Shown: positions 29,415-62,038, counted from the stretch's first letter. The stretch is 64,000 nt of DNA from a virus (IMGVR_UViG_3300028048_000142:106-64105); one strand, 5' to 3'. The notes: generated by a model from the letters alone, not told the origin. Numbers and translations are program-made.

Positions 29415-29531
29415 TGTGATCTGTATCACAAAATTATAAGAAACCCACCTTTTAAATGTAGGTGGGTTTTAACTGATATTATTAAATCTCATTTTTTCAC
29501 CACTTTTTTACAAATATTTTTAATAGTATTA
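29323..29531 (+). repeat. imperfect direct repeat (about 208 bp), copy 1
   Basis: Matches 31517-31723 with several substitutions and a 2-nt indel. Confidence 0.9.
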
Positions 29532-31447
29532 GGAACTGTCCCTAAATTAAATCCAATTTTAGGAACTTGTTTAACCTTAATTTCATTGTTAAGTATAGTA
29601 TAAATAATGATTAAAACTTTGAAGCATATCACATTTTTAAAAACAATTTTATTGACATATAAATAAAGGTGTTATATACTTCTTTTTAATATAATGACAT
29701 GTAGTTAAGTTATTGAACTATGAAAAAGTTAAAAGCCAAGACAAAAAATATAAAGCAAACTAAAAAAAGACGCAAAAAGAAAAGTCATAAAGATTATTTT
29801 ATGATTAGTCTTAAATTTGCATATAAGTTAATTTTTGGTGACAAAGAACTTTTAGAGAGATATGAAAAACAAGCTACATCTCTTGTTCATATTTTTTATA
29901 ACTTATTTGTTGATAATCCGAAGATGACATGCCATGAAGCTAACGAGCATATCAAAGGTTATAAGAACCTTGATTTAATGGATTCTTATATGGTTTTATG
30001 CGCTTATAGAAGATCGTATTCGATGTATAAACGTTATAATGTAGACAGTGAAGAACCATTAGGTCATAAACTCGTTTTCGGTAAACGAAAAAACCTAATT
30101 AAAACATCTAAACACACATTATCAAAAAAGGAATTTAAAAAACTAAGAATCTTACCTTTATTTTTAGAAGGTCAAAAAGCTGATTTTGCAAATAGACGTG
30201 TTAGAATTAAAGATAAACACACTCTCGAATTTGTTGTTAATGGTAAAGTGATTTTTGTTTTTAGAGTATCAGATAAAAGATGCGGTATTTTAAATCAACT
30301 CAAGAAAAAACAAGATGCTAAACAAATGCCGATTACATATACCATTGGTGATGATTATATTACTATAACTTATAATCAAAAATTGCTTACAGTTCCTAAA
30401 AATCATAATCTGTTAGCAAATAGAATCATGTCAATTGATATGAATCCTGACTATATTGGTATTACAATTTTTGATGTCGATCAAGATAGCCATATCAGAA
30501 ACATTCTAAAAGCATATGTTATTGACTGGAGTACTATAACTGAAATTCAAAAAGAATTAAAACAAGCTAGTAACTCAGAAGGTAATAAATATCTTACTAA
30601 TAAGAGAAAACATGAAATTAAGAATGTAGGTAAATTTATTTCAGATTTATCAGTATTTTATAAATGCAAATATATAGCAATAGAAGATTTGGATTTTGAT
30701 TCTAATTGCAAGGGTTTTAGGAACTCTAAATGGAATAGGAATTTAATTTTTCAATCATTATTTAAGCATTCCGTCGAAAACGGTGTTACTATTTTACGTG
30801 TTAATCCGGCTTATACAAGTATCATAGGAAATATTGTCTGCAGACATAATATTCCTGACATGTGTAGAAGTGCGTATGAAATTGGTTATCGAGCAGTAAA
30901 AGGACTTCAAAATGGAAATTTCGATAAAGACTGGGTAGATACAAATAAATATCTACATTCGTTAGATAAGATTAAACTCTTTATCACTAAATCGTTGGAA
31001 GAATGCGGTGATAAAGATAAAGAACTTAAAGAAGTTAACAAATTAACATTTAACAATGTAAAAGACTTCATGCATAGAAACAAAATACAGTATAGAGTTT
31101 CTATTGAAGACTGTCATGATAATGAAACAGTCTATATATTTAAAAACGATAAATCGCTAGTTAAGATTCATTCTTACAGCGTAAGACACTATAAAAAGAC
31201 GATTGCTTGATTCGAGAGTTTGCATAGGAAGTATTGCTTTTGAATCAAGTTAGAATGCCGTAAAAAGCAATTTAACTTTAAAATAGCGATTCACTATTAT
31301 AGAGTCTTAAAACAAAAAGAAACTCGAATAAGGTTAGGGTTTCAACTTAATATGTGTAAGCATGATGAGTTCTTTTATGTTGAACTACATGGTGTATATC
31401 ATAGTTCAAATAAGTCCCAAAATTGGATTTAATTTAGGGACAGTTCC
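29532..31447 (+). mobile_element. TIR-bounded TnpB element 1
   Basis: Perfect 29-bp TIR GGAACTGTCCCTAAATTAAATCCAATTTT; TTA on both flanks. Confidence 0.88.
29720..31210 (+). CDS. tnpB: TnpB/Cas12f-like RuvC nuclease (no zinc finger)
   Basis: SIDMNP (RuvC-I), IAIEDL (RuvC-II), VNPAYTSIIG, PDMCRSAYEIG (RuvC-III); promoter TTGACA 29652 / TATACT 29675. Confidence 0.85.
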   Translation: MKKLKAKTKNIKQTKKRRKKKSHKDYFMISLKFAYKLIFGDKELLERYEKQATSLVHIFYNLFVDNPKMTCHEANEHIKGYKNLDLMDSYMVLCAYRRSYSMYKRYNVDSEEPLGHKLVFGKRKNLIKTSKHTLSKKEFKKLRILPLFLEGQKADFANRRVRIKDKHTLEFVVNGKVIFVFRVSDKRCGILNQLKKKQDAKQMPITYTIGDDYITITYNQKLLTVPKNHNLLANRIMSIDMNPDYIGITIFDVDQDSHIRNILKAYVIDWSTITEIQKELKQASNSEGNKYLTNKRKHEIKNVGKFISDLSVFYKCKYIAIEDLDFDSNCKGFRNSKWNRNLIFQSLFKHSVENGVTILRVNPAYTSIIGNIVCRHNIPDMCRSAYEIGYRAVKGLQNGNFDKDWVDTNKYLHSLDKIKLFITKSLEECGDKDKELKEVNKLTFNNVKDFMHRNKIQYRVSIEDCHDNETVYIFKNDKSLVKIHSYSVRHYKKTIA

Positions 31448-31516
31448 TTAAGAAAGTTCATGACCAGTATAATACTGATAAATCCATAAATGCAATGTCG
31501 GATGATGAAGCAAAGA

Positions 31517-31723
31517 ATGCTAAAAAAGATGATAAGAAAGAAACTAACGAAAGCTATAGATTTTCAAGGTTCGGAAGAATGAGAAGATTAAGCCGTAGAT
31601 TTAGATAATGTGATCTGTATCACAAAATTATAATAAACCCACCTTTTGAATGTAGGTGGGTTTTAACTGATATTATTAAATCTCATTTTCACCACTTTTT
31701 TACAAATATTTTTAATAGTATTA
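31517..31723 (+). repeat. imperfect direct repeat, copy 2
   Basis: Matches 29323-29531. Confidence 0.9.
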
Positions 31724-31986
31724 TATATATAATAATAGTCTGCCTTAGAATTATAATTTTTAATGCCTTCTTCATCCCAGTTTGTTGGAAAAACCCAGTG
31801 GAACAACGCTTTAAATTTGTTTTCTCTGCCGATTCTGAATGTATTCAAGTCTATTGTTTTCAATTCATTGACTAAATGAGTATAGTCCATGTTATTGATA
31901 ACTGCATCTAGCAATTCAAAGCATACAAGAAGTGTACGTTCTTTGTCTTTTTCTCTTTTTTCCCATGCTTTCATACAAAACCTCAC
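31663..31986 (-). CDS. hypothetical protein
   Basis: 107 aa ORF; its 3' end is duplicated near 29470-29531. Confidence 0.6.
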   Translation of the reverse strand: MRFCMKAWEKREKDKERTLLVCFELLDAVINNMDYTHLVNELKTIDLNTFRIGRENKFKALFHWVFPTNWDEEGIKNYNSKADYYYIYNTIKNICKKVVKMRFNNIS

Positions 31987-32044
31987 AATAATTCGATTAT
32001 GTTATTATTATATAATAAATAATAAATAAAAACTGTGATATATA

Positions 32045-32670
32045 TCACAGTTTCTTAGGAAACCCTAGATGATGTATGATGTACGGATCTGTGCAAGGTG
32101 GCAGAAACCGATTCCAGCATACATCATTCGGCATTATTCTTATACGATCTCTGAATTTCCAATTGAAAAAGTCCTGTTCTGGACAGCTTGAAAACGGACA
32201 GCTTTTAAAAAACCATTGAAGTTCTTCTATATTAAACTCATATTTAAAATTCATTATCATGAATCTGGCATTGATATATCGTGACGGCTCAATTCCTATG
32301 AAGTCTAAAACCTTTTTACGTTTATCAGACAGTCTATGATAATTCAAATCTTCTAAGCAGCCATAAAGATACTGCTCAGAATACCGTTCAAGAATAGGTG
32401 TGATGTCTTTTTAAACTCTAAATCCAAGTCAAAGTTAAAAACTTGCTCATGCTGCATGGATAAATCTGAAAAGATTTTAATTTTTGCTAATAATAAGTCT
32501 AAAAAACGGTCATAATTAGTATGGGATTTGAAATCAATCTCGATTTTGGGTATTATTTTTGAATTTTTTATTAATTTTGTATTAGAATATATATAATAAT
32601 CATTATTAATATTAATATTTTTTAGATATTTTTCGTAATTTGCATCTAAAACACAGAAACCAATCCTCAT
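32045..32670 (-). pseudogene. GT8-like glycosyltransferase split by a single -1 frameshift
   Basis: DLD motif in the first ORF; YINA, EQDFFN, IIHHLG in the second; one extra A at the A5 run (32408-32412) joins them in frame. Confidence 0.7.
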
Positions 32671-33065
32671 TCTCGGTATATTTTAAGATTATCAACTTTA
32701 AAATTGTATGAAATACCCTCATAGTCGTTATAGATGTTCTGAAATTTGATAAATTGCGGATAGAATTGAACATTATTGAATGTTTTAACAAGTGTATTAT
32801 CAATAGTGACATTTAATGTCATGTTTTGAATATTTGCAGATAATTCACAATGATGTGAACCGGTGTAATTGTAATTGCACAGAACCCCTCCAGATTTGCA
32901 ATATTTCGCACCAAATTCAAAGACCTTTACATCCCTATATAGAATGTAAAACATAGGCTTATTTTCGCTTGCAAGTGCCGTAAAATCGAATGTAAACGTC
33001 CATTTGTTGAAGTTCCAGCAATCTAGGTTACCCTCATCAATGTCTGCAGTATAGTCATATGGCAA
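32667..33065 (-). CDS. hypothetical beta-rich protein
   Basis: 132 aa, late operon. Confidence 0.6.
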   Translation of the reverse strand: MPYDYTADIDEGNLDCWNFNKWTFTFDFTALASENKPMFYILYRDVKVFEFGAKYCKSGGVLCNYNYTGSHHCELSANIQNMTLNVTIDNTLVKTFNNVQFYPQFIKFQNIYNDYEGISYNFKVDNLKIYRE

Positions 33066-33067
33066 TC

Positions 33068-33691
33068 CTATGACAATTCACCAAATGCATCATACACACC
33101 ATTACCGATGTATAACAAGGTAACTGCACTTCCGATACGTCTTAATGTGGTTAAATCGTTTGGGCTGATTGTTACATTTGTTCCTGCTTTGATAGTTAAA
33201 GATGAACTATCACCGCTTACTTTTCGGATTGTTAAAGTCAAACCGACAAAATCCTCGCTTGCCGGTTTGGTTACTGTTATGTTTGCATTATTTGAACTTT
33301 TAACACGCAACAAGGTTCTACCGTCAAAATCTGCATTGACAGTACTGTAACCGCTTGAAACATTTTTAATACGGAATTTAGGAATTGAAGAACCACTGAC
33401 TGATATCTGCTCATGAACCCATTTATCAGACTGATCAGGTCGATTACCTACATTGCCGTCAATTGCTGAACGATAAAACCTGCCATTGTATGAAACGTAC
33501 TCATCACGTTCATAGAATTTAACAGTACTCCAAGTTTCAATCGGAACACCGGTTAAAATATCAAGAACGCTTTTCAATTCCCGAATTTCACGTTTCAAAC
33601 GAAACAGCGGTCGGTTAAAAACCGTTTCATTCGGTTTGTCACCGTTGCGAATTCTGAAATTATCAAAAAATTCTTTTAATGTTACAAACAT
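33068..33691 (-). CDS. virion fibre-associated protein with CBM5/12-like motif
   Basis: WSTVKFYERDEYVSYNGRFYRS..N..P..W; late promoter upstream. Confidence 0.6.
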   Translation of the reverse strand: MFVTLKEFFDNFRIRNGDKPNETVFNRPLFRLKREIRELKSVLDILTGVPIETWSTVKFYERDEYVSYNGRFYRSAIDGNVGNRPDQSDKWVHEQISVSGSSIPKFRIKNVSSGYSTVNADFDGRTLLRVKSSNNANITVTKPASEDFVGLTLTIRKVSGDSSSLTIKAGTNVTISPNDLTTLRRIGSAVTLLYIGNGVYDAFGELS

Positions 33692-33739
33692 AAAAATTTT
33701 CCAAATTATTAATATATTATTATATATATTTATAATTTT

Positions 33740-34033
33740 TTAATTTTTTGTTTCTAATTCAGCAATTTTATCAACGATACTATCATCAAATGCAAGTAAA
33801 TCTTTATATGCAATCAGTTCATCGATTTTCGGTGCAAGTTTCCTGTCTGTCTTGTACATTCTTAATGCTTTAAGAACCACCGTTGTTTCAAGACCCTGCT
33901 CTTCGTATTCACTTTTTAACGCTTTCATATCTTCCTTGATTTTCTTCATTTCAAGTTCAAGATTAAGATAACGTAATGCATATTCAGATGTTAATTTTTT
34001 AACTTCATTGTCTAATGTAATACTCATAGTCAA
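33740..34033 (-). CDS. dsbA: DsbA/GapR-like dsDNA-binding protein
   Basis: LELEMKKIKEDMKALKSEYEEQGLETTVVLKALR pattern, near gp32. Confidence 0.72.
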   Translation of the reverse strand: MTMSITLDNEVKKLTSEYALRYLNLELEMKKIKEDMKALKSEYEEQGLETTVVLKALRMYKTDRKLAPKIDELIAYKDLLAFDDSIVDKIAELETKN

Positions 34034-34038
34034 AGTCC

Positions 34039-34353
34039 TTAATCAATGTCAACTATAATAGAATTTCCAACAATAGTGTAGTTTAAATCTCTTAGAATTA
34101 TATCAATATTATCAGGTATTGAATACAATTCAATTGATACTGCATTATTATCAGGTGTAATGTTCTTAATTTTAATATTAGATGCTCTTAAAATATCCAT
34201 AATAGAATACTGTTTAAGATTCTTTTTTGTAGCTTTTACTACCGGGGTTTTTACTGCCGTGGTATTTGACTTCTGCATCTGTAACAGCTTTGTTGCTATT
34301 TCAGTATCAGAATTTTCAATGTTCGGCTTTGCTACTAAATCTGAAAACTTCAT
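34039..34353 (-). CDS. hypothetical protein
   Basis: 104 aa ORF. Confidence 0.6.
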   Translation of the reverse strand: MKFSDLVAKPNIENSDTEIATKLLQMQKSNTTAVKTPVVKATKKNLKQYSIMDILRASNIKIKNITPDNNAVSIELYSIPDNIDIILRDLNYTIVGNSIIVDID

Positions 34354-34460
34354 AATTTTAACCCTTTAAATTAAATAAGCAAAAGACATTCAAATCCTTT
34401 TAAATGCTTTTGCTTATATTTATATTTTTAATATTTCACATCCATGTGAAGAATTAAAAA

Positions 34461-35474
34461 TTAGCTTAGAGAGTTAAGCAAGTCATCAAATTCAGATTTT
34501 GCAGTAGCTTGCGGTTGCGGTGCTGGCTGTGAAACAGCTTGTACTGTCTGCACCGGTGCAACTTGAACTTCCTGTGAATCTTTAACTTCAGCTTTTGGCT
34601 CAACGGTAGCATGTTTTTCAATGTTAATATTCGGGGTTTCACCCTGAGCCGGAACACCGAACTCACCATAACTTACATAGTATAAGTCATTCTGAAGTTC
34701 CTGATATGACTTGAAGTTTGCCGGATCTTTGAATTCATCCAAATCATAAGTCTTTCTCAAATCTTCAGCGCATTTAGCTTTCACATCATCAAAGTTAGCT
34801 AAATCACCGTAAATTGACTTTCCATCGCCCATGAACTGGAACTGTGATGAATCATAGGTAACAATACCGTTTGTACCTTTCTGGCATTTCAAAACAAATA
34901 CCCAGCCTTTCAATGGATTGAAGATTTCCTTACGTGTAACACCCATCTGCAAATCGGTTTCAGACGGATTCAAGGCTTCCATAAGTTTGTTAGCCATTGA
35001 CTGTGAAAACTCATAAAGGAAAATTTTACCCTCATTATCCTTGTTTGCCGGATCTTTGATTATCTTTATATTTGCAATAAATCTCTTTTGAGGTTTATAT
35101 TTTCTTGCAATATCGGAATCCTTTTCCCACATTGAAACATAAGTTTCATGGAACGGATCTGCAAGTCCAATACTCTTAGGGGACCAGATTGATTTATAAC
35201 GTTTTTGAGTTTTTGGCTCTTTAGTTGTTGCATCAATGGTCTGTTTAGTAATGGTTGTATTGATTTTATACATCTGAATCAAGGTATGAAACTTCATATC
35301 CGGCAAAAATGCAATAATTGCCTGACCTTTCATATCCTTATCTTTTGTTAAGGTGTAGAATCTTTCATCTACATAGCTTTTCTTATCCTGTTCAAAAGGA
35401 TTTACACCGGTCTGTTTTTCAATCTGATTGAAATCAAAAGCATTTAAGTCTAAATTATTCAAATCTATACTCAT
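34461..35474 (-). CDS. gp32: single-stranded DNA-binding protein
   Basis: DERFY, AIIAFLP, RFIANIKIIKDPAN..NEGKIFLYEF, acidic C-terminus FDDLLNSL. Confidence 0.93.
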   Translation of the reverse strand: MSIDLNNLDLNAFDFNQIEKQTGVNPFEQDKKSYVDERFYTLTKDKDMKGQAIIAFLPDMKFHTLIQMYKINTTITKQTIDATTKEPKTQKRYKSIWSPKSIGLADPFHETYVSMWEKDSDIARKYKPQKRFIANIKIIKDPANKDNEGKIFLYEFSQSMANKLMEALNPSETDLQMGVTRKEIFNPLKGWVFVLKCQKGTNGIVTYDSSQFQFMGDGKSIYGDLANFDDVKAKCAEDLRKTYDLDEFKDPANFKSYQELQNDLYYVSYGEFGVPAQGETPNINIEKHATVEPKAEVKDSQEVQVAPVQTVQAVSQPAPQPQATAKSEFDDLLNSLS

Positions 35475-35492
35475 TTTTTCCTCTCTTATATA

Positions 35493-36218
35493 TTACTGCT
35501 TTGGTTTTACGGTCACTTGTAATCTAAAACTTTTTACATTATTAGATTTCATTAAAATTCTAAATTCATCACGGGCTTCATTGTATTTAACACATACAGT
35601 ATAGTCATGTAATGGAATACGCATAAATGTTTCTAATGATATAAGTATATCAAAGTTTTTATGTGTATCGCAAGACTTTTTTAATGTATATGTATTAGAA
35701 GATGCATTGAATTTACCTACTGATGATAATGAGATTTCAACACCATCCTCGCCCTTGAACTCGATAAATTTAAGTTCATCAAGTGCAGCAGATGCACTGC
35801 GTAACTTTTTAATATCATCCTGAGTCAATACAAATTCAGCAACGCTAGGCTTGCTGTCAACAATATCCATCTGCTCAGGCTTGAACTCAAAAGCTGATAA
35901 CAACTGCGGTGCAGTCATCAGGTATCTTGCTTTTGAATGTTCATTTGAGATATTGATGCAGTTGTTTTCAATTACCACATCACGATCATCCGAGTTATCA
36001 CCGAACAATCCAAGAACATTTAAAAAGCCGTTCAAGTTGAACAATCCGATTTCACCATCGAATGTATCATTTTCATCTTCGCTTACTGAGGTAAGATTGA
36101 ATGAAAATGAAATATCATTAACTTCGGATTTACCATAAGTTACCGGTGAACGTAAAATTATCGAATTTGATATTTTACTTATACTTTTTAAAAAATTAGT
36201 TAATTCAGTACTAAACAT
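35493..36218 (-). CDS. gp45: sliding clamp
   Basis: NFLKSISKISNSIIL, EIGLFNLNGFLNVL, DYTV. Confidence 0.82.
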   Translation of the reverse strand: MFSTELTNFLKSISKISNSIILRSPVTYGKSEVNDISFSFNLTSVSEDENDTFDGEIGLFNLNGFLNVLGLFGDNSDDRDVVIENNCINISNEHSKARYLMTAPQLLSAFEFKPEQMDIVDSKPSVAEFVLTQDDIKKLRSASAALDELKFIEFKGEDGVEISLSSVGKFNASSNTYTLKKSCDTHKNFDILISLETFMRIPLHDYTVCVKYNEARDEFRILMKSNNVKSFRLQVTVKPKQ

Positions 36219-36226
36219 TATAACCT

Positions 36227-37210: not shown

Positions 37211-37220
37211 TTAATTTTCC

Positions 37221-37499: not shown

Positions 37500-37515
37500 T
37501 TTAAACTCTCAAAAC

Positions 37516-37755: not shown

Positions 37756-37767
37756 ATAGCATCCCCC

Positions 37768-39557: not shown

Positions 39558-39667
39558 AATGTATTCCTCTCACAAATCAATGATATCTATTATATATAGA
39601 AACCCCATATTGTCAATGCAAATCTATGAAAAATGTGAGTTAAATCAAGCTGCACTCATTCAAAAGT

Positions 39668-40504
39668 TGCTCAAAGTTGCAATAAACTATTTGAGTTTGG
39701 CAATAGTTTATTAGCAGTTTGAAGTGTTTTGATTACTTTTTAACCAACTGAATGAACCTAGAGCAAGGCTCTGAACTGTTACAGACTTCTAAAAACATGC
39801 TCAAAGTGGCGATAAACTATTTAAGAATGCCAATAGTTTATTAGCAGTTTGAAGTGTTTTGATTACTTTTTAACCAACTGTATGAACCTAGAGCAAGGCT
39901 CTGAACTGTTACAGACTTCTAAAAACATGCTCAAAGTGGCGATAAACTATTTAAGAATGCCAATAGTTTATTAGCAGTTTGAACACATTTGATTACTTTT
40001 TAAACAACTGTATGAACTTAGAACACGGTTCTTAACTGTTACAGAATCCAAAAACATGCTCAAAGTAGCGATAAACTATTTAAGAATGCCAATAGTTTAT
40101 TAGCAGTTTGAACACATTTGATTACTTTTTAAACAACTGTATGAACTTAGAACACGGTTCTTAACTGTTACAGAATCCAAAAACATGCTCAAAGTAGCGA
40201 TAAACTATTTAAGAATGCCAATAGTTTATTAGCAGTTTGAAGTGTTTTGATTACTTTTTAACCAACTGTATGAACCTAGAGCAATGCTCTGAACTGTTAC
40301 AGACTTCTAAAAACATGCTCAAACTATCAATAAACTATTTCAGTTTCCAAATAGTTTATTAGCACTTTGAAAGGTTTTGTTCACTTTTTAACCAACTGTA
40401 TGAACATAGAACACGGTTCTTAACTGTTACAGAATCCTAAAAACATGCTCAAAGTGGCGATAAACTATTTCAGTTTCCCAAAGGTTTATTAGCACTTTGA
40501 GCAT
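39668..40504 (+). repeat. tandem array of about 6.4 units of 129-130 bp
   Basis: TGCTCAAA recurs at 39668, 39798, 39928, 40057, 40186, 40316, 40446; each unit holds two hairpins. Confidence 0.97.
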
Positions 40505-45153: not shown

Positions 45154-46236
45154 ATGCTCAAAGTTTTTCAATCAATACTTGAAAGGTTCAAAATGCTAAA
45201 AGAAAGTGAGATTATAAATGTAGTTAAAAACTATGATGGTTTATATGATGTGACTTTAGATAAACCGTCAAACGATTACGATCATTACTTTGTGAACTGG
45301 AGAGATGTACCTAGATATGATAGTGATGGTAAACTCATTCCGCCGGAAGTATTCAAGGAAAAGATTATTGACTCATTCGGTGAAGTGCATTTTGCACAGA
45401 ATTATGAATGTTCTTTTATCGGTTCGAGTCATACACTGATAGATCCAGAAGTATTAAAAGATTTTTCATCAATCGAGCCTTTATATCAAAGAGATGGATT
45501 TTTGAATGTGTTTGAAGAACCAATCAAGAACCACAAATACATTTTAGCAGTAGATCCGGCTAAAACAGGTCTTGATGCTTTTGCTTCACATATATTAGAT
45601 ATTACCACATTCCCTTTTAAACAAGTGTGTTCTGCACAAATATATAAATGTAACTGGCAGATAATGCCGGAATATGTTAATGAATGGGGAATATCATATA
45701 ATAATGCATTTATCATTATAGAAAACAATGAGGGTGCAGGAACTTTCATAGCAGAGATGCTTAGAACGGAATTTGAGTATGATAATTTATTCTTTGAAAG
45801 AAAGACAAATCAAAACAATCCAAACGGTAAAAAAGTAAAAGAAGCCGGTTTTAGAACTACCACTAAATCAAGAAAATTGATTTTAGATACTTTAAAACTA
45901 TTTATGAATAATAAACAGCTTATTATAAATGATAAGAATACTATAACAGAGTTTTATACTTTCATAAATAAAAACGGTAAATATCAAGCTGATGACGGTT
46001 GCCATGATGATATGATAATGTCTTTAGCCCTTGCTTTTGCCCCTTTCTGTAATTCTCATAACTTTGAAGATTTCAGGGAATTGATTAAACAAATCTATTC
46101 CTCAAATTCTGAAGATGCAGTAAGTAAAAATAGTAGTATAACCGATTATATGGTAATCGGTTCATTTGATGATGCGAACGATCAGAACTACAAAAATCAT
46201 GATTATCAATCATCTAGGATGAGTGACTTTTTCTAG
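45154..46236 (+). CDS. gp17: terminase large subunit, nuclease half only
   Basis: FAQNYECSFIGSS, LAVDPA, IENN, GFRTT, DGCHDDMIMSL; no Walker A/B. Confidence 0.9.
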   Translation: MLKVFQSILERFKMLKESEIINVVKNYDGLYDVTLDKPSNDYDHYFVNWRDVPRYDSDGKLIPPEVFKEKIIDSFGEVHFAQNYECSFIGSSHTLIDPEVLKDFSSIEPLYQRDGFLNVFEEPIKNHKYILAVDPAKTGLDAFASHILDITTFPFKQVCSAQIYKCNWQIMPEYVNEWGISYNNAFIIIENNEGAGTFIAEMLRTEFEYDNLFFERKTNQNNPNGKKVKEAGFRTTTKSRKLILDTLKLFMNNKQLIINDKNTITEFYTFINKNGKYQADDGCHDDMIMSLALAFAPFCNSHNFEDFRELIKQIYSSNSEDAVSKNSSITDYMVIGSFDDANDQNYKNHDYQSSRMSDFF

Positions 46237-48923: not shown

Positions 48924-50350
48924 GTGAACTACTCCTACCCCGTAAAGGGCTTGTGCTTCCTACTTCAACTAGGCTGAATGAGTTTCAAACCCCATTTGGA
49001 TTTGAAGTCATTCAACCTATCCATAGGCACTTCCCTGAGTTCCTCAGGTGTTTCTTTATCAGTTATTAAATGATAAATTAAAATCATATTATTAGCAGCA
49101 TGAACATCTCGATCATTCGTATAACCGCATTCACATGTATAAGTTCTTTCACTTAACGGCATTTTATGCTTAGAGAAACATTTAGGGCATAACTGAGTCG
49201 TTGGAAGCCATTTATTTAATACATGACAGTTATCTAGCTTTTTAGTTTTGCTTTTAACACGTCCTAAGATTTCATGTTGCATCCTTTTACCATATCTGCG
49301 TTTCCAATTTTTTAATTGTTCATCTTGCATTAACACAGTCTTATGGTTTTTAAGTTCATGAACAAGTTTATTAGCTTTATCCTCTTTAATATTATCTAAT
49401 TTGTTATACAGCTTATTAAGCTGGTGTTTTGTTTTATACCAGTTTTTAGAACCTTTGACTTTCCTAGAAAGTTCACGTTGTTTACGTTTTATCTTTTCAA
49501 TCAGTTTAAGATCTACTGTTGATTTAATTTTCTTACCGTTAGAAAAAGTAAAAGCATCTTTAATACCATAATCAATACCTATTTCCTCAGATGTTCTAGG
49601 TATTGACTCTTCTTTTTCAACATAGACAGTTACATGAATAAAATAACCCTCTGCAGTATGAACAAGTTTAGCATATTGAATATCAAAATCACCTTTGATA
49701 TTTTTAAGTTGCTCACCGCCATTAATTCTTAAAGTTCCTTTAATCCCTTGGATATGAATTCTAGTGTAGTTTTCATTGAAAGTAAAAGTGTTTCCATACT
49801 GTTTTAATGGGATTGCTTTAACATATTTGCAGTGTTTTAATTTGCCTACTTTTTGACCGTTTGATTTTTTAGCATGTAAAGAATTTAAACTGTATTGAAT
49901 CCATTCTACAGTACCACGGCGCATTTGAGAACTTAAATGATTTAATTTAACTTCTACATCATTCTTATCTTTATCTTTGTGGGTTATTGTTTTTATCTTA
50001 GTATCAAAATCTTTTAAATTATTTCCTTTTTCTAAAAAATCCAAAACAAAGTTTTTATACCATTTTGCTTCTACATAAAGCATTTTAAAATCATTTTTAA
50101 CTTTATTATTCAGCTTATTTTCTTGAAGTTTGAGAATAAAAGTTTTGATAAGCATATTTGAATGCTTTTCTTTATTCATCTCTTTAGTCAGTCTACCTTT
50201 TTCGTATGCTTCTGCTCTATTCAAGTTAAAAACCTCTTTTAAATACTTTTATTGTATAATATACTATATATATTTATATGTCAAGCATTTTTTTTTATTT
50301 TTTATTGCCTTGTTCCCCACACCGTAAAGGTGTGGGGTTTTGTGGGGATT
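48924..50350 (-). mobile_element. IS605/IS1341-type element (TnpB only)
   Basis: Left hairpin CCCCACACCTTTACGGTGTGGGG; right end GAAGCACAAGCCCTTTACGGGGTAGGAGTAGTTCAC. Confidence 0.82.
48965..50224 (-). CDS. tnpB: TnpB RNA-guided nuclease
   Basis: GIDYG, QDE, TTQLCPKC..CECG zinc finger, DRDVHAANN. Confidence 0.92.
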   Translation of the reverse strand: MNRAEAYEKGRLTKEMNKEKHSNMLIKTFILKLQENKLNNKVKNDFKMLYVEAKWYKNFVLDFLEKGNNLKDFDTKIKTITHKDKDKNDVEVKLNHLSSQMRRGTVEWIQYSLNSLHAKKSNGQKVGKLKHCKYVKAIPLKQYGNTFTFNENYTRIHIQGIKGTLRINGGEQLKNIKGDFDIQYAKLVHTAEGYFIHVTVYVEKEESIPRTSEEIGIDYGIKDAFTFSNGKKIKSTVDLKLIEKIKRKQRELSRKVKGSKNWYKTKHQLNKLYNKLDNIKEDKANKLVHELKNHKTVLMQDEQLKNWKRRYGKRMQHEILGRVKSKTKKLDNCHVLNKWLPTTQLCPKCFSKHKMPLSERTYTCECGYTNDRDVHAANNMILIYHLITDKETPEELREVPMDRLNDFKSKWGLKLIQPS

Positions 50351-50365
50351 GCAAAACCTTTTTAA

Positions 50366-52214: not shown

Positions 52215-52223
52215 TTTAAACTC

Positions 52224-53339: not shown

Positions 53340-53348
53340 AGATGCACC

Positions 53349-54572: not shown

Positions 54573-54597
54573 GGTATGTTCCTTTTTTTTTAAAATT

Positions 54598-56463: not shown

Positions 56464-56472
56464 TTTTATATC

Positions 56473-57237
56473 CTAAGATGCAAAAATATTGCCTCGTTCA
56501 AGTACTTCTACAGTATTTATAAATTCTTCCAGAGGGTCAAATGTTACATCTTCAATTGTACTGTTTTCCTCATTTGTATTCAAGGTTATTCGACCTTTCT
56601 GATCTATGATTTCAGTTATACTTGTATAAACAACGGTATTGAGATTGTTAATAATCTCATAAGTCACAGTTAGATTTCCACCCGTTGTATAAACAAAAAA
56701 ATTCATATCTGAAATATACTCATAAAGAATATTATTATTGAAATGAATTGTTGCAACAAATGTATCCACATTATCAGCACCTATACATCTTTGATATTTA
56801 GATGTTCTTTTGCCATAAGGGGCAAACATATTATGCGGTGCATTATCATCTTCAGAATTATCCGAATTCCTAGAACTTATTGAAATTGTACATGGAAATT
56901 CAACACCATCGGAATTTTCAAAAATACATTCTTCAATGAGATTTGAGGGATTTGCAGCACTTGAACATTCTTTATATTCGAGGTTTAAAAATTTAACATT
57001 CTGCAATCCGAGAAGATTTGTACTAGCGGCAATATTCTTATCACGTTCAATAGTGATTCGTACCGTGTACGTGTTCAAGGTTTCTTCTGCAACGATGCAC
57101 AAAATATCATACTTCGTACATGTGGTAAGCCATTCTTCTGAAATTGTATTCAACACATAACGTGAATCGGCAAACTTTCTATGAAAGTCTTCCGTAAACC
57201 GTTTTGTGCCTTGTTTATCAAGATATTGTTCGCTCAC
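56473..57237 (-). CDS. virion fibre-like protein
   Basis: GTG start; YLDKQG..RF motif shared with 60032 and 62039 ORFs. Confidence 0.65.
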   Translation of the reverse strand: MSEQYLDKQGTKRFTEDFHRKFADSRYVLNTISEEWLTTCTKYDILCIVAEETLNTYTVRITIERDKNIAASTNLLGLQNVKFLNLEYKECSSAANPSNLIEECIFENSDGVEFPCTISISSRNSDNSEDDNAPHNMFAPYGKRTSKYQRCIGADNVDTFVATIHFNNNILYEYISDMNFFVYTTGGNLTVTYEIINNLNTVVYTSITEIIDQKGRITLNTNEENSTIEDVTFDPLEEFINTVEVLERGNIFAS

Positions 57238-57285
57238 AATTACCCCCAATAAAAGCCCCCACAAAAAGCGGGAGCATAATCATAT

Positions 57286-59961
57286 TTAACCACCAGATAC
57301 CACAGTTGTAAATGAGTTAGTTCCGGCATTGATAAATGACAGTTTGATAAATTCAGCTACGTATGTAGGCTTGATATAGATATCAACAATCATCTGATTC
57401 TGACTGATAACATATGGTGTGTTATTAGTTTCATCACAAACAGTATAGTAATCCTGAATACCACGTCCGGCTTGAACATTTGCCAGATACGGATTGATAA
57501 TGCTCAAAATTCTGTTACGTGTGAATGAATCATTAAATTCAAATACCTGATACTTCGACATCTTAGCTAATGCACGTTCAATGTGATTGAATAAATGCCT
57601 GATATTCAATCTATCAAATGAACTTGCTTTATCAAGCAAGGTCTTTTGACCCCACAATACAACACCCTGAGATGGGAAAGAACAAATGATATTAACATTA
57701 TTCTTGTATAAATCATCTCTCTGTGACTGGTTAGGGTTGAATGCGAGTTTAGTTACATTCTTTAACTGACCTCTATTCAAACCTGCAGATGCCCACCATG
57801 GGTCTAATTCAGCATTGGTCTGCGCTCTTAAACCGGCAACGTCACCGGCAAAGTTAACCCACCGATATGTATCATTATATCTATCATACTGATACTTATA
57901 ATTACCAAATAATGCACAGAACATATTAGATAATGATTCTGTAGAGCCTACACCTCGACCGGAAACCATGCCGTTACCTTTACGATAACCAATCAATGCT
58001 TTAGTAGCATTTGGTGAAGTCTGACCTACACAATCTTCGTATCTTGCACCGATATATGCTACACAGTCAGCACGTGCATTTGCAAGAAGTATTGCTGAAT
58101 AACCGTCATCACGTTCATTTGCAATAATAATATCAATATCCAAATCATCTTTATTTGAGAATACATTATATGCATTTATCAAATCATCAGTCTGAATTGA
58201 ACTGTCGGTAGCATTCCATAAGGTTAATGTTCTACCTTTATAGGAATGAATTGTCTGTGTTCTGCAAGTGTAGTTATCAAGGCTTATAGTATATGCGGTA
58301 GACTGTGCCGGTGCTGTTACAGAAGAACTTGTAATATCAGCCCAAGTTAAACCGTGTTCATCAACACAGTTAGTCCAAGTTTCATACTGTGTACCTTTCA
58401 AATCATTTGCAGTTGTAACAGTAAAATCAATCTCGTTGTTTACAGAATCAAGATTGTACTTGTTTACAGCAATCTCAATATACTTTGATGTATCTGATAA
58501 ATCAGTAAATCTTACAATCTTAATTACGTTATCATACAGCACATAAGATGCAACATCAGGATAATCATCGATTACATCAATTTCATGTAATGGAATTGAC
58601 TCGTTAACAATTGCAAAAATCTTGCTTGAACGTCTGTTAATAACATTTTCAATGTACAATGAATTGTTATTAGAATCCACCTCATCTTTATCAAGTGAGC
58701 AAACAAACTTTTCAACCACTTCATCATTAACAGGATCATAAACAACAACCGCCATTTGATGTGTATGGGTTTCAGGTGGATAGTCAAATACATTATCTAG
58801 CGGAATACCGTCAGATACATAACGTGCAATAAAGCCATCTTCATCCGGTCCGTAATTCTTTTTGAAATCTCTAGGATTTGCAATAACAATCTTATATCTT
58901 GCCATATCAGTTCCCGGATTCCGTGAAAAGAATTTAAGTTTACTCTGTGCTGGAAATGCAAATGAGAATTGCTTATTTTCAAGTTTATAGGTAAACTCTG
59001 AATCGTTTTTAATCTGTTTGTTTGTATTAAACAAATCATACATATCAACCATTGATTTAGCAAGATATCTAATCTTTCTCAATGGGTAGTTTGCTTCGCT
59101 AGGCAGTTTATGTGCGTTGCATTCTGCATCAGTAATATCAGTTCTTAAATACAGTGGAATACGGATATAGTCACCGTTGCTGTCTAAGAGATTGTCAATA
59201 GTATCTGCATTTCGTAAAGTTGTAACACCGTTATTCACACTGTCAGTAATGGTGAAATTGTTAAAATCGTATGCAAGGGCTTCGCATGAACCGTTAAAAA
59301 GTTCAGTGATTTTGAAAATCTTGCATAATGGATTTATAGCATTTGTAGATACAATTCCAACCGGATATGGGGTATTGAATGAATAGCTTGAAGAGCCGCT
59401 TGAAGTTGTAGCAATCGTAAAGTTAACAGGTTTATTCAATACCAGTGCATACAAAGGTGCATTATTAACAATTGTATCAATTATCCCAGTAATAATGTAT
59501 CTAGGCTGATCTATAGCAGTATTCTTATCCGGTGCAAATGAAATTATATCACCTACATTCAAGGTTGTTTTCTTATCAATTACAACAATTTCATCATCTG
59601 TGCCGATACCGAATTGAGACAAACCGTATGGCTGAATACCGTAACCGGATTCAGATGTTATAGTTTCAACCTTTAAATCGGTATCTTTAGGCGCCCCGTT
59701 CATGTTTCCGGCTCTTGAAACAAGCAAGTGATTACCGTACTGTAAAAAATTATAACCTTGATACCATTCATTGTAGTTATCATTTTTTGGAAGACCATAA
59801 ATGTCTTCATATTGTGCAACGGTTGAAATTAAACTGTAATCATCAATAGGTCCACGGGTAAACATACCACCTAATACCGCAACGGTGGAACTTACCACTG
59901 GAACAATTTCCGACATGTCCTTTTCATCAACGTATACGCCGGGGGAAAGCATCTCAGCCAT
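57286..59961 (-). CDS. gp18: tail sheath protein (large, with insertions)
   Basis: LSPGVYVDEKD, PWWASAGLNRG, LWGQKT, FDRLNIR.LF, FEFND, YIKPT. Confidence 0.97.
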   Translation of the reverse strand: MAEMLSPGVYVDEKDMSEIVPVVSSTVAVLGGMFTRGPIDDYSLISTVAQYEDIYGLPKNDNYNEWYQGYNFLQYGNHLLVSRAGNMNGAPKDTDLKVETITSESGYGIQPYGLSQFGIGTDDEIVVIDKKTTLNVGDIISFAPDKNTAIDQPRYIITGIIDTIVNNAPLYALVLNKPVNFTIATTSSGSSSYSFNTPYPVGIVSTNAINPLCKIFKITELFNGSCEALAYDFNNFTITDSVNNGVTTLRNADTIDNLLDSNGDYIRIPLYLRTDITDAECNAHKLPSEANYPLRKIRYLAKSMVDMYDLFNTNKQIKNDSEFTYKLENKQFSFAFPAQSKLKFFSRNPGTDMARYKIVIANPRDFKKNYGPDEDGFIARYVSDGIPLDNVFDYPPETHTHQMAVVVYDPVNDEVVEKFVCSLDKDEVDSNNNSLYIENVINRRSSKIFAIVNESIPLHEIDVIDDYPDVASYVLYDNVIKIVRFTDLSDTSKYIEIAVNKYNLDSVNNEIDFTVTTANDLKGTQYETWTNCVDEHGLTWADITSSSVTAPAQSTAYTISLDNYTCRTQTIHSYKGRTLTLWNATDSSIQTDDLINAYNVFSNKDDLDIDIIIANERDDGYSAILLANARADCVAYIGARYEDCVGQTSPNATKALIGYRKGNGMVSGRGVGSTESLSNMFCALFGNYKYQYDRYNDTYRWVNFAGDVAGLRAQTNAELDPWWASAGLNRGQLKNVTKLAFNPNQSQRDDLYKNNVNIICSFPSQGVVLWGQKTLLDKASSFDRLNIRHLFNHIERALAKMSKYQVFEFNDSFTRNRILSIINPYLANVQAGRGIQDYYTVCDETNNTPYVISQNQMIVDIYIKPTYVAEFIKLSFINAGTNSFTTVVSGG

Positions 59962-60031
59962 TTTTAAACCTCTAATACAATATATACTTTTATTTATATT
60001 TATATTTTATTCAAAATTTTTTTAAAACTTT

Positions 60032-60454
60032 CTAGGCAAGTATTTCAATGTTTGATGAATTTTCTGTAACTTGAATTATTTTGCCGTTTAATTCTTCAAT
60101 CTCAGCCTTAGTTGTTGCAAGTTCTAAAGTAGTTTTAGAACCGTTGCTTGTTTGAATGACAAAAGTTGTCACCTCACCTAAATTTGAAGTATCAAAAACA
60201 TAAAAACCGTGTTGATTCTGTTCAAGTGTAATCAATTCCCACGGATTATTGAGTTTAATACTCATAGTTTCCCAATTTTCTGAATCAATCCAAATCTCAT
60301 TGTTGCCTAAAAAAGTCTGCAAGATCTCATAATTTGTCATCGTTTCCGGTTTTGCTAATGTAATAGCCTCTTCAACCTGTTCAATAGTTTGGAATGTATT
60401 TTTGAAATTACGATAAAGCCGTTTTAAACCGGTTCTGTTAAAATATTCTGCCAT
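60032..60454 (-). CDS. short paralogue of the 62039-63499 fibre protein
   Basis: Shares N-terminal GLK..Y.N.K..F and C-terminal NEIW.DS...ATKAEI domains. Confidence 0.7.
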   Translation of the reverse strand: MAEYFNRTGLKRLYRNFKNTFQTIEQVEEAITLAKPETMTNYEILQTFLGNNEIWIDSENWETMSIKLNNPWELITLEQNQHGFYVFDTSNLGEVTTFVIQTSNGSKTTLELATTKAEIEELNGKIIQVTENSSNIEILA

Positions 60455-60504
60455 TTTTAGAATTCCTATAAATAAGTTTTATTATTATTTATATTTATAT
60501 ATAA

Positions 60505-61979
60505 GGAACTGTAAATAAATAACTTCCGAAATTTAATACATATAAATATATACAAAATTATTTATATTTTTTTATTGCATTTAAATTTTAGAGTAGTATA
60601 CTATATGTATGAAAGATGAAACAAAAACATTATTATCATGTGATACTCAATTCACACCATTTGATTCAATTTATGAAGAATTGGATCATGTATTGTTTTT
60701 GTCTAAAAATCTATATAATACTTGTGTATATATAATACGTCAACTTTTCTTTAAAAAGCGTGACTGTACAGATCCAGTTTTAAAATCAAGCATGAAAGGA
60801 TATATGACTGGATTTGAGTTGTCAAAAATGCTTCAAGATGAAGATAATGTTGATTATAGAGCCTTGCCTGCTGCTGCAGCGCAGCAAGTTTGCAAGCAAG
60901 TTGATAAAGCTTTCAAGGCATATTTTGCAGCATGTAAAGAGGGTTTAACCCCAGAACTACCAAAATACTTAGATAAAGTAAAAGGTCGTAATAAACTTTC
61001 TTTTGCAAAGAATGGAATTTTAAAGAATAATTTAAAAAATGGATTCATAACGCTAGTTAAATTAGGTATCACATTTAAACTTCCAGAATATATAGATTGT
61101 GAATCAGTTCAACAAATTGATATTATTAAAACCGGTAATAGAACCATAAAAGTTATAATCATTTATGCAGTTCCTAAAGTTGAAATGAAAAAGAACAACA
61201 ATAGAATTTTAGGAATTGATGTTGGTGTTAATAATTTGATGGCTGTAGTATCAAATACTAATGATTTTAAGCCAATAATCTATGATGGAAGACCAATTAA
61301 GGAAATCAACCAGTTTTGTAATAAATATGTTGCTAAATATAAAAGTTTATCTAAAAATGTAATAACTGAACGTATATGTTCAATTTATAGAAATCGAGAA
61401 AACAAAATCGATGATTGTTTTCATAAAATAGTCAACGATTTGATTAATCAAGCAGTTTCTAACGATTTTAGTGTTATCGTTATCGGTAAAAATAAAGGTT
61501 GGAAACAAGAGGTCAAACTTGGTGATCAAAACAATCAAAATTTTGTTTGTATACCTCATAATCTGTTAATCAATATGATTAAGTATAAAGCCGCATTATA
61601 TGGTATTACGGTTATAGAAACTGAGGAATCTTATACTTCTATATGTTCTTTCTTTGATAATGAATTTCCGTGTTATCACGAAAATTATAAAGGAGAAAGA
61701 GTGAAAAGAGGATTGTTTAAGAGTTCTTTAGGGTTTATAAATGCCGATTTGAATGCTGCTTTAAACATAATCAGAAAAGTATTTCCAGAGTTTAGCTGTG
61801 AAACAGCTAATTTGAGTATAAATCATTTTAAAAATGTATTAAAGGTAAGCCCTAAGATGCTGTGTAACAGCAATCATCGGGTCTAGTGGGGTCGGGCGAT
61901 TCCTTCAATTTTAAAGCCTTAAACAAGTTTTAAAGTTGTAAATGTAAATAAATTTCGGAAGTTATTTATTTACAATGCC
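60505..61979 (+). mobile_element. TIR-bounded TnpB element 2
   Basis: 31-bp TIR (29/31) GG(A/C)A(C/T)TGTAAATAAATAACTTCCGAAATTTA; TAA on both flanks. Confidence 0.88.
60609..61886 (+). CDS. tnpB: TnpB RNA-guided nuclease
   Basis: SKNLYN, GIDVGVNNL, IVIGKNKGWKQ, EESYTS, INADLNAALNI. Confidence 0.93.
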   Translation: MKDETKTLLSCDTQFTPFDSIYEELDHVLFLSKNLYNTCVYIIRQLFFKKRDCTDPVLKSSMKGYMTGFELSKMLQDEDNVDYRALPAAAAQQVCKQVDKAFKAYFAACKEGLTPELPKYLDKVKGRNKLSFAKNGILKNNLKNGFITLVKLGITFKLPEYIDCESVQQIDIIKTGNRTIKVIIIYAVPKVEMKKNNNRILGIDVGVNNLMAVVSNTNDFKPIIYDGRPIKEINQFCNKYVAKYKSLSKNVITERICSIYRNRENKIDDCFHKIVNDLINQAVSNDFSVIVIGKNKGWKQEVKLGDQNNQNFVCIPHNLLINMIKYKAALYGITVIETEESYTSICSFFDNEFPCYHENYKGERVKRGLFKSSLGFINADLNAALNIIRKVFPEFSCETANLSINHFKNVLKVSPKMLCNSNHRV

Positions 61980-62038
61980 TAAAAAATGGGATGTAATTCT
62001 GCACCCCATTCAATCTTATTTTAAGTTAATCTTAAAAA

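What the first reader, a model, noticed from the sequence alone, without database searches (positions are those of the whole stretch)
29529..61982. Two divergent TnpBs packaged in TIR elements with TWA target duplications instead of IS605 ends
Seen: element 1 (29532-31447) has perfect 29-bp TIRs and TTA on both sides; element 2 (60505-61979) has 31-bp TIRs (29/31) and TAA on both sides. Both left ends begin GGAACTGT, each carries only a promoter, a tnpB with RuvC acidic motifs retained, and a 3' non-coding tail. The two proteins belong to clearly different TnpB groups. A third matching right end lies at 22511-22530, again next to TTA. Known: IS200/IS605 elements lack TIRs and target duplications, while 3-bp TWA duplications typify some IS5-family groups and PIF/Harbinger DDE elements. 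Inference: a non-autonomous DDE-type shell that has recruited RNA-guided nucleases more than once, paralleling Fanzor capture in eukaryotes, and may drive homing between phages. Best candidate for an undescribed system here.
Basis: partly seen in the sequence, partly recalled or inferred. Interest (0 to 1): 0.85.

Follow-up and report, generated by a model that had tools for sequence, protein, structure and literature searches.

The report
TnpB nucleases in inverted-repeat phage transposons
Two small jumping-gene elements in a T4-like phage of ruminant guts each carry one RNA-guided-nuclease (TnpB-type) gene between inverted-repeat ends and duplicate 3-4 bases on insertion, a rare but already described way of packaging such nucleases, here with no transposase in sight.

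Summary
Element 1 (29532-31447) has perfect 29-bp terminal inverted repeats (TIRs). Element 2 (60505-61979) has TIRs with two mismatches. A solo right end lies at 22511-22530.

Related phage and metagenome contigs carry the same elements at other sites, with homology ending at the TIR tips. All 12 distinct complete copies have identical 3-4-nt flanks (TTA, TAA, TATT, CTAG). Two exact empty sites show a 3-bp and a 4-bp duplication, and a third fits TAA apart from one base in a homopolymer run.

Both genes are TnpB-type. P0002 is a RuvC-II-rearranged TnpB. P0001 has no Pfam hit but folds like Cas12f/TnpB and keeps D-E-D. Distant relatives of both sit behind IS607-type serine recombinases, yet these ends are neither IS607- nor IS605-like. 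The E1 tail is a structured, covarying RNA and is over-represented in metatranscriptome contigs.

No transposase was found in about 354 kb of five related phage fragments, and none shares the termini.

Best reading: non-autonomous TIR/TSD transposons moved in trans by an unidentified DDE-type enzyme, with TnpB/omegaRNA serving retention or homing. TnpBs inside DDE/TIR elements, including solo ones, are in print (Altae-Tran 2023). I rate this a new variant of a known kind.

The parts
29529..29531 (+). TTA flank left of E1
   Evidence: The same TTA flanks other E1-family copies.
29532..29560 (+). E1 left TIR: 29 bp perfect, imperfect to 29575. It starts GGAACT and is followed by an imperfect hairpin.
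29652..29680 (+). sigma-70-like promoter (TTGACA-17-TATACT, 11 of 12) upstream of the E1 ORF
   Evidence: This is a consensus match only. The stretch is conserved in the G004 copy.
29720..31210 (+). P0001, 496 aa: a zinc-finger-less TnpB/Cas12f-like RuvC nuclease with D240, E322 and D380
31211..31447 (+). E1 3' tail, 237 nt: a structured, covarying, omegaRNA-like region. It ends in a hairpin (31414-31441) followed by AGTTCC.
31419..31447 (-). E1 right TIR
31448..31450 (+). TTA flank right of E1
29256..29531 (+). Upstream copy of the 276-bp segment that is single-copy in relative G001. Positions 29320-29531 are 96% identical to 31514-31723.
31448..31723 (+). Downstream copy of the same 276-bp segment: a remnant 3' end of the homologue of gene 28398-29414, plus an empty intergenic TTA site
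60502..60504 (+). TAA target duplication, left of E2
60505..60535 (+). E2 left TIR (GGAACTGTAAATAAATAACTTCC...)
60609..61886 (+). P0002, 425 aa: TnpB (OrfB_IS605 + TNB). D204 and D380 are invariant. The canonical RuvC-II position is Gly. The invariant E339/E340 lie 6-7 residues before C346, which is the rearranged RuvC-II type.
61887..61979 (+). E2 3' tail, 93 nt. It ends in a 10-bp-stem hairpin (61944-61973) followed by AATGCC.
   Evidence: read from the sequence.
61949..61979 (-). E2 right TIR; the tip reads GGCATTGT
61980..61982 (+). TAA target duplication, right of E2
22497..22533 (+). Solo E1-type right end: a perfect 10-bp hairpin (22497-22524), then AGTTCC, then TTA. It is syntenic in relative G001.

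Best explanation
E1 and E2 are non-autonomous cut/copy-and-insert transposons of one end-family. The terminal octamer is GG(A/C)A(C/T)TGT, and each arm holds a hairpin 6 nt from the tip.

Shown:
- They are mobile as TIR-bounded units.
- They duplicate 3-4 bp of TA-containing target: TTA, TAA, TATT or CTAG.
- They carry only a TnpB-type RuvC nuclease gene and a structured 3' RNA.

Inferred:
- A transposase that makes 3-4-bp staggered cuts moves them in trans. It is most likely a DDE enzyme of the IS5/IS1031/ISL2-like kind, encoded elsewhere in the phage or in the host.
- The nuclease, with an omegaRNA read from the right end into the flank, cuts element-free alleles in co-infecting phages or after excision. 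Recombinational repair then copies the element back (retention or homing).
- The 5' duplicated triplet probably serves as part of the TAM, as reported for Fanzor in DDE transposons.
- The shell has come to hold at least two TnpB lineages whose wider relatives are IS607-type.
For: Mobility and boundaries:
- The G004 copy matches window 29527-31452 only, at 89%, and its flanks are unrelated.
- Further copies lie in G001 (two), G002 and G003.
- Relatives at 38% protein identity (L174, L175, L253) keep the GGAACTGTC tip and TTA flanks.

Target duplication:
- 12 of 12 distinct complete copies have identical 3-4-nt flanks. The chance of a match per pair is 0.024.
- Exact empty sites exist. A single TTA in G001 matches the G004 E1 copy, and a single CTAG in G004 matches the G001 E2 copy.
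- The E2 site is empty in L027/L028 with one TAA, apart from 1 nt of homopolymer run.
- Both flanks vary together (TAA, TTA and CTAG among 4 E2 copies). This fits a duplication, not an inherited end.

Trans-acting factor:
- The TIRs are far more conserved than the cargo. The E2 TIR is nearly identical around TnpBs that are 54% identical.
- The same tip flanks two P0001-family genes that are 47% identical in one MAG.

Nuclease.

RNA:
- The E1 tail folds with z -3.9.
- 13 of 54 predicted pairs are compensatory between two lineages.
- In RNA-library contigs of two studies the tail bins read 718/1459 and 124-131. The ORF bins read mostly 5-61/0-110 (one bin 187.5) and 12.5-54 up to 30953. The DNA run reads 44-108 against 15-91.

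Precedent: DDE-associated and solo TnpBs with inverted terminal repeats (PMC10691335, passages). ISL2, IS630 and IS1031 are named in the review PMC13565253 (passages).
Against: No transposase with these termini was found.
- IMG/VR scans for both end types returned only this phage clade.
- DDE_Tnp_1, DDE_Tnp_4, DDE_3, DDE_Tnp_1_2, rve and Resolvase were found in 0 of 5 related fragments, about 354 kb in all and each 15-59% complete.
- Y1_Tnp gave only 17.6-bit remnants, in 2 of 5.
- Only 7 Pfam families were tested.

The nearest transposase-linked relatives of both nucleases carry serine recombinases, not DDE enzymes.

E1-family flanks are TTA in gene orientation in 11 of 12 ends or copies, and never TAA. 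A symmetric DDE reaction alone does not predict this.

No circle junction or footprint was seen, but only contigs were laid.

RNA depth comes from contigs, and DNA may be present in RNA libraries.

Guide use, the TAM and cleavage are untested.
Confidence: 0.55

Rival explanations
1. TnpA-less IS607-family derivatives, mobilised in trans by a serine recombinase. The flanking TTA/TAA would be a conserved 2-bp crossover core (TA) plus a target preference, not a duplication.
For: - A Resolvase-type ORF of about 200 aa sits directly upstream of P0001 relatives in 8 of 22 viral loci (5 of 5 tested carry Resolvase).
- The same holds for P0002 relatives in 15 of 80 loci (5 of 5 tested).
- A similar ORF of about 203 aa is found in 29 of 157 metagenome and genome loci. 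That set was not Pfam-tested.
- All observed flanks contain TA.
- IS607 exchanges over a 2-bp identity and has imperfect inverted repeats near its ends (PMC6188088, passages).
Against: - With a fixed TA core, the bases between the core and the TIR would be element-borne and constant. They are not: near-identical E2 copies have TAA (window) and TTA (L418, 95.5% identical TnpB), and another has CTAG.
- The whole 3-4 nt is single-copy in the empty sites.
- TnpA-bearing relatives have only short, imperfect, subterminal repeats.
- Resolvase was found in 0 of 5 related phage fragments.
Confidence: 0.15
2. IS200/IS605-like single-strand elements moved by a Y1 (HUH) TnpA in trans. The ends are hairpins, the element inserts 3' of TTA, and its right end itself terminates in TTA, which mimics a duplication.
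For: - Each end has a hairpin with a stem of about 10 bp lying 6 nt from the tip.
- E1-family flanks are strand-specific: TTA in 11 of 12, and never TAA.
- The same phage carries IscB with HEARO RNA twice. Published work assigns such elements to Y1 transposases (PMC4810608, abstract and passages).
- A weak Y1_Tnp remnant lies beside IscB.
Against: - A right-end cleavage motif would be inherited. Instead it co-varies with the left flank: TATT/TATT, CTAG/CTAG, and TAA versus TTA.
- 29-31-bp terminal inverted repeats are not a feature of this family (PMC13565253, PMC4810608, passages).
- No intact Y1 gene was found in 5 fragments.
Confidence: 0.1
3. There is no separate transposase. The RuvC (RNase-H-fold) nuclease encoded in the element, with or without its RNA, itself recognises the TIRs and carries out excision and integration.
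For: - It is the only ORF in every complete copy.
- Several copies and many further junction contexts exist, while seven transposase families are missing from about 354 kb.
Against: - The same tip flanks nucleases with no detectable pairwise similarity.
- The TIRs stay constant while the proteins drop to 38-54% identity. This points to a shared external factor.
- The phage records are 15-59% complete.
- No TnpB is known to transpose (recalled).
Confidence: 0.06

Closest known systems
DDE-transposase-associated TnpB branches (DDE-1 to DDE-6) and their solo derivatives (Altae-Tran et al. 2023, PNAS; passages read)
   Same: TnpB lies within about 250 bp of one end of an element with inverted terminal repeats. 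Some solo TnpBs carry the same ends and are presumed to be mobilised in trans.
   Different: No transposase-bearing partner was found here. The cargo nucleases have IS607-type relatives. The hosts are lytic T4-like phages of ruminant guts. Whether these ends are among the published ones could not be checked, because the supplements are closed.
IS607-family elements (serine recombinase TnpA + TnpB)
   Same: Distant relatives of both nucleases at 25-44% identity sit directly downstream of a Resolvase-type TnpA. The gene order and the 3' RNA tail are alike.
   Different: E1 and E2 have no TnpA, long terminal TIRs and 3-4-bp duplications. IS607 has none of these and targets GG (PMC6188088).
Fanzor1 in eukaryotic DDE transposons
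   Same: A TnpB-type nuclease rides in TIR/TSD transposons of another class. The proposed use of the 5' duplication as part of the TAM matches (review PMC13565253). P0002 shares the relocated RuvC-II glutamate.
   Different: The setting is prokaryotic and phage-borne, the proteins are much smaller, and no transposase lies in cis. The TAM role is untested.
IS1341-type solo-TnpB elements of IS200/IS605
   Same: A single tnpB gene plus a right-end RNA, and non-autonomous.
   Different: Those lack TIRs and duplications and insert 3' of a 4-5-nt site.
Free-standing homing endonuclease genes (seg, mob) of T-even phages
   Same: Selfish nuclease genes lie between conserved genes of T4-like phages. 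There is allele replacement next to the insertion: the divergent allele left of E1.
   Different: Here the nuclease would be RNA-guided and the unit has transposon ends. Homing is not shown.

Membership tests
TnpB/Cas12 (OMEGA) RuvC nucleases | Bilobed Cas12f/TnpB fold with a split RuvC domain | tested here: met
   For P0001: Foldseek hits AsCas12f at 2.9e-10 and ISDra2 TnpB at 7.4e-7, with 71 hits at E<=1e-3, and a profile hit in PDB at 7e-5. For P0002: Pfam OrfB_IS605 at 1e-13 and TNB at 1.6e-10.
TnpB/Cas12 (OMEGA) RuvC nucleases | Conserved D-E-D catalytic triad | tested here: met
   P0001: D240, E322 and D380 are invariant in 23 sequences. P0002: D204, E339/E340 and D380 are invariant in 16 sequences. 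The glutamate is relocated to 6-7 residues before C346 and the canonical position is Gly293.
TnpB/Cas12 (OMEGA) RuvC nucleases | Guide RNA (omegaRNA) made from the 3' end of the gene and the right end, reading into the flank | tested here: inconclusive
   The E1 tail is structured (z -3.9), with 13 of 54 pairs compensatory. Contig depth is high in RNA libraries of two studies. RNA contigs of the solo right-end locus run past TTA into its flank. The contigs give no ends or strand. E2 was not tested.
TnpB/Cas12 (OMEGA) RuvC nucleases | RNA-guided DNA cleavage next to a TAM | not testable with these tools
   Needs biochemistry or a depletion screen.
IS200/IS605 | No TIRs and no target duplication | tested here: not met
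   TIRs of 29-31 bp. Duplications of 3-4 bp, with empty sites.
IS200/IS605 | Y1 HUH TnpA in cis or in the genome | tested here: not met
   Only 17.6-bit remnants, below the cut-off, in 2 of 5 fragments. The genomes are incomplete.
IS607 | Serine recombinase TnpA upstream of tnpB | tested here: not met
   There is none in E1 or E2, and Resolvase was found in 0 of 5 fragments. Distant relatives do have it.
IS607 | No TIR or TSD; exchange at GG | tested here: not met
   Targets are TTA, TAA, CTAG and TATT, and are duplicated.
DDE-type TIR transposon (IS5/IS1031/ISL2-like, PIF/Harbinger-like) | Terminal inverted repeats at the exact boundaries of the mobile unit | tested here: met
DDE-type TIR transposon (IS5/IS1031/ISL2-like, PIF/Harbinger-like) | Short fixed-length target duplication | tested here: met
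   12 of 12 complete copies. Two exact empty sites, plus one with a 1-nt run difference. That TNA/TWA/YTAR targets typify these groups is recalled, not tested.
DDE-type TIR transposon (IS5/IS1031/ISL2-like, PIF/Harbinger-like) | A DDE transposase, in cis or in an autonomous partner with the same termini | tested here: not met
   None was found in the IMG/VR end scans, in five Pfam DDE families across 5 fragments, in 300 + 150 GTDB genomes, or in MAG G006. Absence is not proven.

The most novel reading that the evidence does not exclude
In lytic T4-like phages a TIR/TWA shell has repeatedly taken up IS607-derived RNA-guided nucleases, including a large, mostly viral, zinc-finger-less family that Pfam's TnpB models miss. 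The element spreads without any conventional transposase. Either the RuvC nuclease/omegaRNA itself performs TIR-directed excision and integration, or an unrecognised phage transposase family does. The duplicated triplet would serve as the TAM. This would be a prokaryotic counterpart of Fanzor-bearing transposons that drives gene conversion between co-infecting phages.
Probability: 0.1. Interest if true: 0.9.

Novelty: new variant of a known kind. Interest (0 to 1): 0.55.

Why it matters
TnpB is usually explained through scarless IS605/IS607 transposition, where the guide RNA restores the element at the emptied donor site. Here the same kind of nuclease rides in elements that duplicate their target, inside lytic phages, with no transposase nearby.

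- If the duplicated triplet is the TAM, this is a compact prokaryotic model for how RNA-guided nucleases adapt to DDE-type transposons, which is the Fanzor situation.
- It is also a model for RNA-guided homing between co-infecting phages.
- P0001 stands for a large, mostly viral nuclease family of about 430-500 aa without a zinc finger. It has 607 representatives at E<=1e-3. Standard TnpB models miss it, which may interest genome-editing work.
- The missing transposase is a concrete, findable target.

Tried and rejected
Searches that found nothing or were wasted:
- GenBank phages (megablast of 28000-33000): no match.
- tRNA scan: none.
- A loose end pattern (14 specified bases) in IMG/VR gave 118 or more single hits, none with an inverted partner better than 8 mismatches in 26. 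These are chance hits and the scan was wasted.
- Search for an autonomous partner: nothing beyond this phage clade in the IMG/VR end scans. The pattern was found in 0 of 300 other genomes of G005's phylum and in 0 of 150 other genomes of G006's order. In MAG G006 the 4 exact tips are 3 nuclease-linked ends and one end followed by small ORFs.

Readings considered and rejected:
- TA-only (Tc1/IS630-like) duplication: the TA is not adjacent to both tips.
- 2-bp serine crossover: see the rival explanations.
- Window E1 as a simple insertion: its flanks overlap by 276 bp in G001. I read this as recombination between two E1 copies inserted at two nearby TTA sites in divergent phages (inference).

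Leads not followed or not resolved:
- P0002-relative loci show other TIR families (12 of 80 loci with 16 nt or more, 2 of them E2-type). These were not followed up.
- The low-coordinate end of the third nuclease element in L147 was not found.
- Read laying showed no right-end-to-left-end joint. Only contigs were laid, so this says nothing about circles.
- The predicted complex job, the second structure job and the RNA covariance models were not used.

Full report
**Context.** The window is nearly all of a 64,105-base IMG/VR virus record estimated 35% complete. It is 31% G+C. It encodes a Gp23-type major capsid protein, a tail sheath, a T4-like single-strand DNA-binding protein and a terminase fragment, so it is a T4-like phage. 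It is rich in RNA-guided nuclease loci:
- an IscB-like gene (RRXRR + HNH, 15047-16357, minus strand);
- two HEARO RNAs (189-408 and 16434-16653, minus strand);
- a TnpB at 48965-50224 (minus strand) without inverted ends;
- the two elements of the finding.

**The observation.** Both elements are as described.
- E1 (29532-31447) has a perfect 29-bp terminal inverted repeat and TTA on each side.
- E2 (60505-61979) has arms differing at two tip positions (GGAACTGT versus GGCATTGT) and TAA on each side.
- The solo right end at 22511-22530 is identical to E1's over 20 nt and abuts TTA.
- The 16-mer of the tip occurs far more often than in shuffles (0 of 100 shuffles reach 4).
- Read directly from the sequence, each arm contains a hairpin with a stem of about 10 bp, starting 6 nt from the tip. 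At the right ends the order is hairpin, then AGTTCC or AATGCC, then the flank.

**The genes.**
- P0002 is an ordinary Pfam TnpB with more than 3,000 homologues. In a 16-sequence alignment D204 and D380 are invariant. The canonical RuvC-II position is glycine, and two invariant glutamates lie 6-7 residues before the first zinc-finger cysteine. A 2026 review describes this relocated-glutamate arrangement for Fanzors and some prokaryotic TnpB lineages (PMC13565253, passages).
- P0001 hits nothing in Pfam, PHROGs or PDB by sequence, but it has a large family: 607 representatives at E<=1e-3.
- A profile of 23 P0001 homologues hits the Cas12f/TnpB RuvC-II region.
- The AlphaFold model of P0001 (pLDDT 83) matches AsCas12f, other Cas12f, ISFba1 and ISDra2 TnpB, and Cas12k.
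- In P0001, D240, E322 and D380 are invariant, and there is no zinc finger.
- The nearest Atlas cluster to P0001 has 8,041 members, 44% of them with PF27229 (SSO2105_N), and is mostly viral.
- P0001 and P0002 are not detectably similar by BLASTP.

**Mobility and boundaries.** Four related phage fragments (G001-G004) and several metagenome or MAG contigs carry the same elements elsewhere.
- The G004 copy matches the window only over 29527-31452.
- Copies in G001 (two), G002 and G003 match over 29525/29529-31448/31450.
- Proteins only 38% identical (L174, L175, L253) still sit between GGAACTGTC-tipped inverted repeats flanked by TTA.
- An E2-type element with a TnpB only 54% identical has almost the same TIRs.
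- One MAG holds two P0001-family genes 47% identical to each other, each beside the same tip.
- Laid contigs from ruminant-gut runs show many further junctions at 29527-33 and 31450-57.
- 20 of 24 listed runs, from 14 studies, hold the stretch or a part of it.

**Target duplication.** All 12 distinct complete copies have identical flanks.
- Eight E1-family copies: TTA in seven and TATT in one.
- Four E2-family copies: TAA in two, TTA in one and CTAG in one.

Two random trinucleotides of these phages agree with probability 0.024.

Three empty sites were found:
- G001 has a single TTA exactly where G004 carries E1.
- G004 has a single CTAG exactly where G001 carries an E2-type copy.
- L027/L028 have one TAA at the window's E2 site, apart from a 1-nt difference in an adjacent homopolymer run.

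Because both flanks change together from copy to copy, they are duplicated target. They are not an inherited end motif (IS605 model), nor a fixed 2-bp crossover core with constant element-borne spacer bases (IS607 model).

**The window's own E1 is not a simple insertion.** Its left flank corresponds to an intergenic TTA in G001. Its right flank corresponds to a TTA 276 bp upstream, inside the 3' end of the homologue of gene 28398-29414. The 276 bp therefore stand on both sides of E1. The upstream copy belongs to a divergent allele of that gene, 78% identical to G001 over 29010-29531 against 94-96% elsewhere.

I infer recombination within E1 between two phages that carried it at the two TTA sites. 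That would restore an intact gene. It is the kind of flank replacement expected around selfish nucleases in T-even phages. Contigs of one run show both sites empty.

**Which transposase?**
- Relatives of both nucleases at 25-44% identity lie directly behind Resolvase-type ORFs of about 190-200 aa. This holds for 8 of 22 loci and 15 of 80 loci, with 10 of 10 tested carrying Resolvase.
- A similar ORF is found in 29 of 157 further loci, which were not Pfam-tested.
- Both lineages are therefore IS607-derived. Those TnpA-bearing elements have only short, imperfect, subterminal repeats.
- In the five phage fragments (about 354 kb, 15-59% complete) none of DDE_Tnp_1, DDE_Tnp_4, DDE_3, DDE_Tnp_1_2, rve or Resolvase was found. 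Y1_Tnp gave only sub-threshold remnants beside IscB.
- End scans of IMG/VR returned only this clade.

The DDE attribution thus rests on anatomy alone: long terminal TIRs and 3-4-bp TA-containing duplications. From recall, these typify the IS5-family groups and PIF/Harbinger.

One feature is not explained by a symmetric DDE reaction. E1-family flanks read TTA in gene orientation in 11 of 12 ends or copies, and never TAA. By my arithmetic that is about 0.001 two-sided. Selection for a TAM on the left side would explain it.

**RNA.**
- The 237-nt E1 tail folds well below shuffles (z -3.9).
- Its consensus structure has 13 of 54 pairs with compensatory changes. These come from only two lineages.
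- In RNA-library contigs of two studies the tail bins at 31250-31397 read 718/1459 and 124-131. The ORF bins read mostly 5-61/0-110 (one bin 187.5) and 12.5-54 up to 30953. In the second study the rise already begins at 30954, inside the ORF.
- In the DNA run the contrast is smaller, 44-108 against 15-91.
- RNA contigs of the solo right-end locus continue past TTA into its flank.
- This fits an omegaRNA, but contigs give no ends or strand, and DNA may contaminate RNA libraries.

**Comparison and novelty.** Altae-Tran et al. 2023 (passages read) describe six DDE-associated TnpB branches with inverted terminal repeats, solo TnpBs with the same ends, and branches lacking the zinc finger. The 2026 review names ISL2, IS630 and IS1031 partners. 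The kind is therefore known.

New here:
- the phage setting;
- the absence of any partner;
- IS607-derived cargo of at least two lineages (a third lies behind an E1-type left end) in one end-family;
- the strand-specific TTA.

My searches of the held literature for TnpB with TIR, TSD and phage turned up nothing describing these elements.

**Verdict.** This is a new variant of a known kind.

Noticed in passing
window 15047-16357 (-), 16434-16653 (-), 189-408 (-), about 14961-15059 (-): An IscB-like gene (RRXRR + HNH) with a HEARO RNA upstream, and a second HEARO copy at the window start. A 17.6-bit Y1_Tnp remnant with an internal TGA lies at the 3' end of IscB.
   Followed up: partly
window 48965-50224 (-) and 50272-50356: A third TnpB (phrog_506, 419 aa) without inverted ends. 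The stretch just upstream is 82% identical to DNA that follows a solo E1 left end in relative G001.
   Followed up: partly
window 22330-22533: The solo E1-type right end with a perfect hairpin is syntenic in G001. RNA-library contigs cover it and run into the flank, so it may be a stand-alone guide-RNA locus.
   Followed up: partly
L147 2900-4976 (relative G002; the same in G003): An E1-type left end and promoter region followed by a different TnpB lineage: 435 aa with a TNB domain, 24% identical to P0002. The other end was not found. An E2-type element lies right next to it.
   Followed up: partly
L152 4585-9179 (relative G001 86936...): A solo E1 left end plus about 120 bp, followed by a 763-aa ORF of no known family and an N6_N4 DNA methylase, then a complete E1 copy. 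This may be capture of defence-type cargo.
   Followed up: no
window 39659-40490 and 63655-64000: Arrays of repeats of about 130 bp, shared at 70-85% identity with the related phages.
   Followed up: no
window 60032-60454 (-) and 32006-32811: Indels relative to close relatives. The 140-aa ORF next to E2 is absent from L027/L028, and about 800 bp after the E1 region are absent from G001.
   Followed up: no
window 10303-13161 (-), 17782-19938 (+): A full MmeI-type restriction-modification gene and an N6_N4 methylase in a phage genome.
   Followed up: no
L349, L354, L358, L361, L381 (IMG/VR loci with P0002 relatives at 38-43% identity): Other solo TnpBs between 19-26-nt inverted repeats of unrelated sequence (tips GGTAAC.. 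and GGTGA..). TIR-bounded solo TnpBs may be common in phages.
   Followed up: no
window 45154-46236 (+): The terminase large-subunit match covers only the C-terminal part of the profile (phrog_2 positions 420-617 of 807). The gene may be split or interrupted.
   Followed up: no
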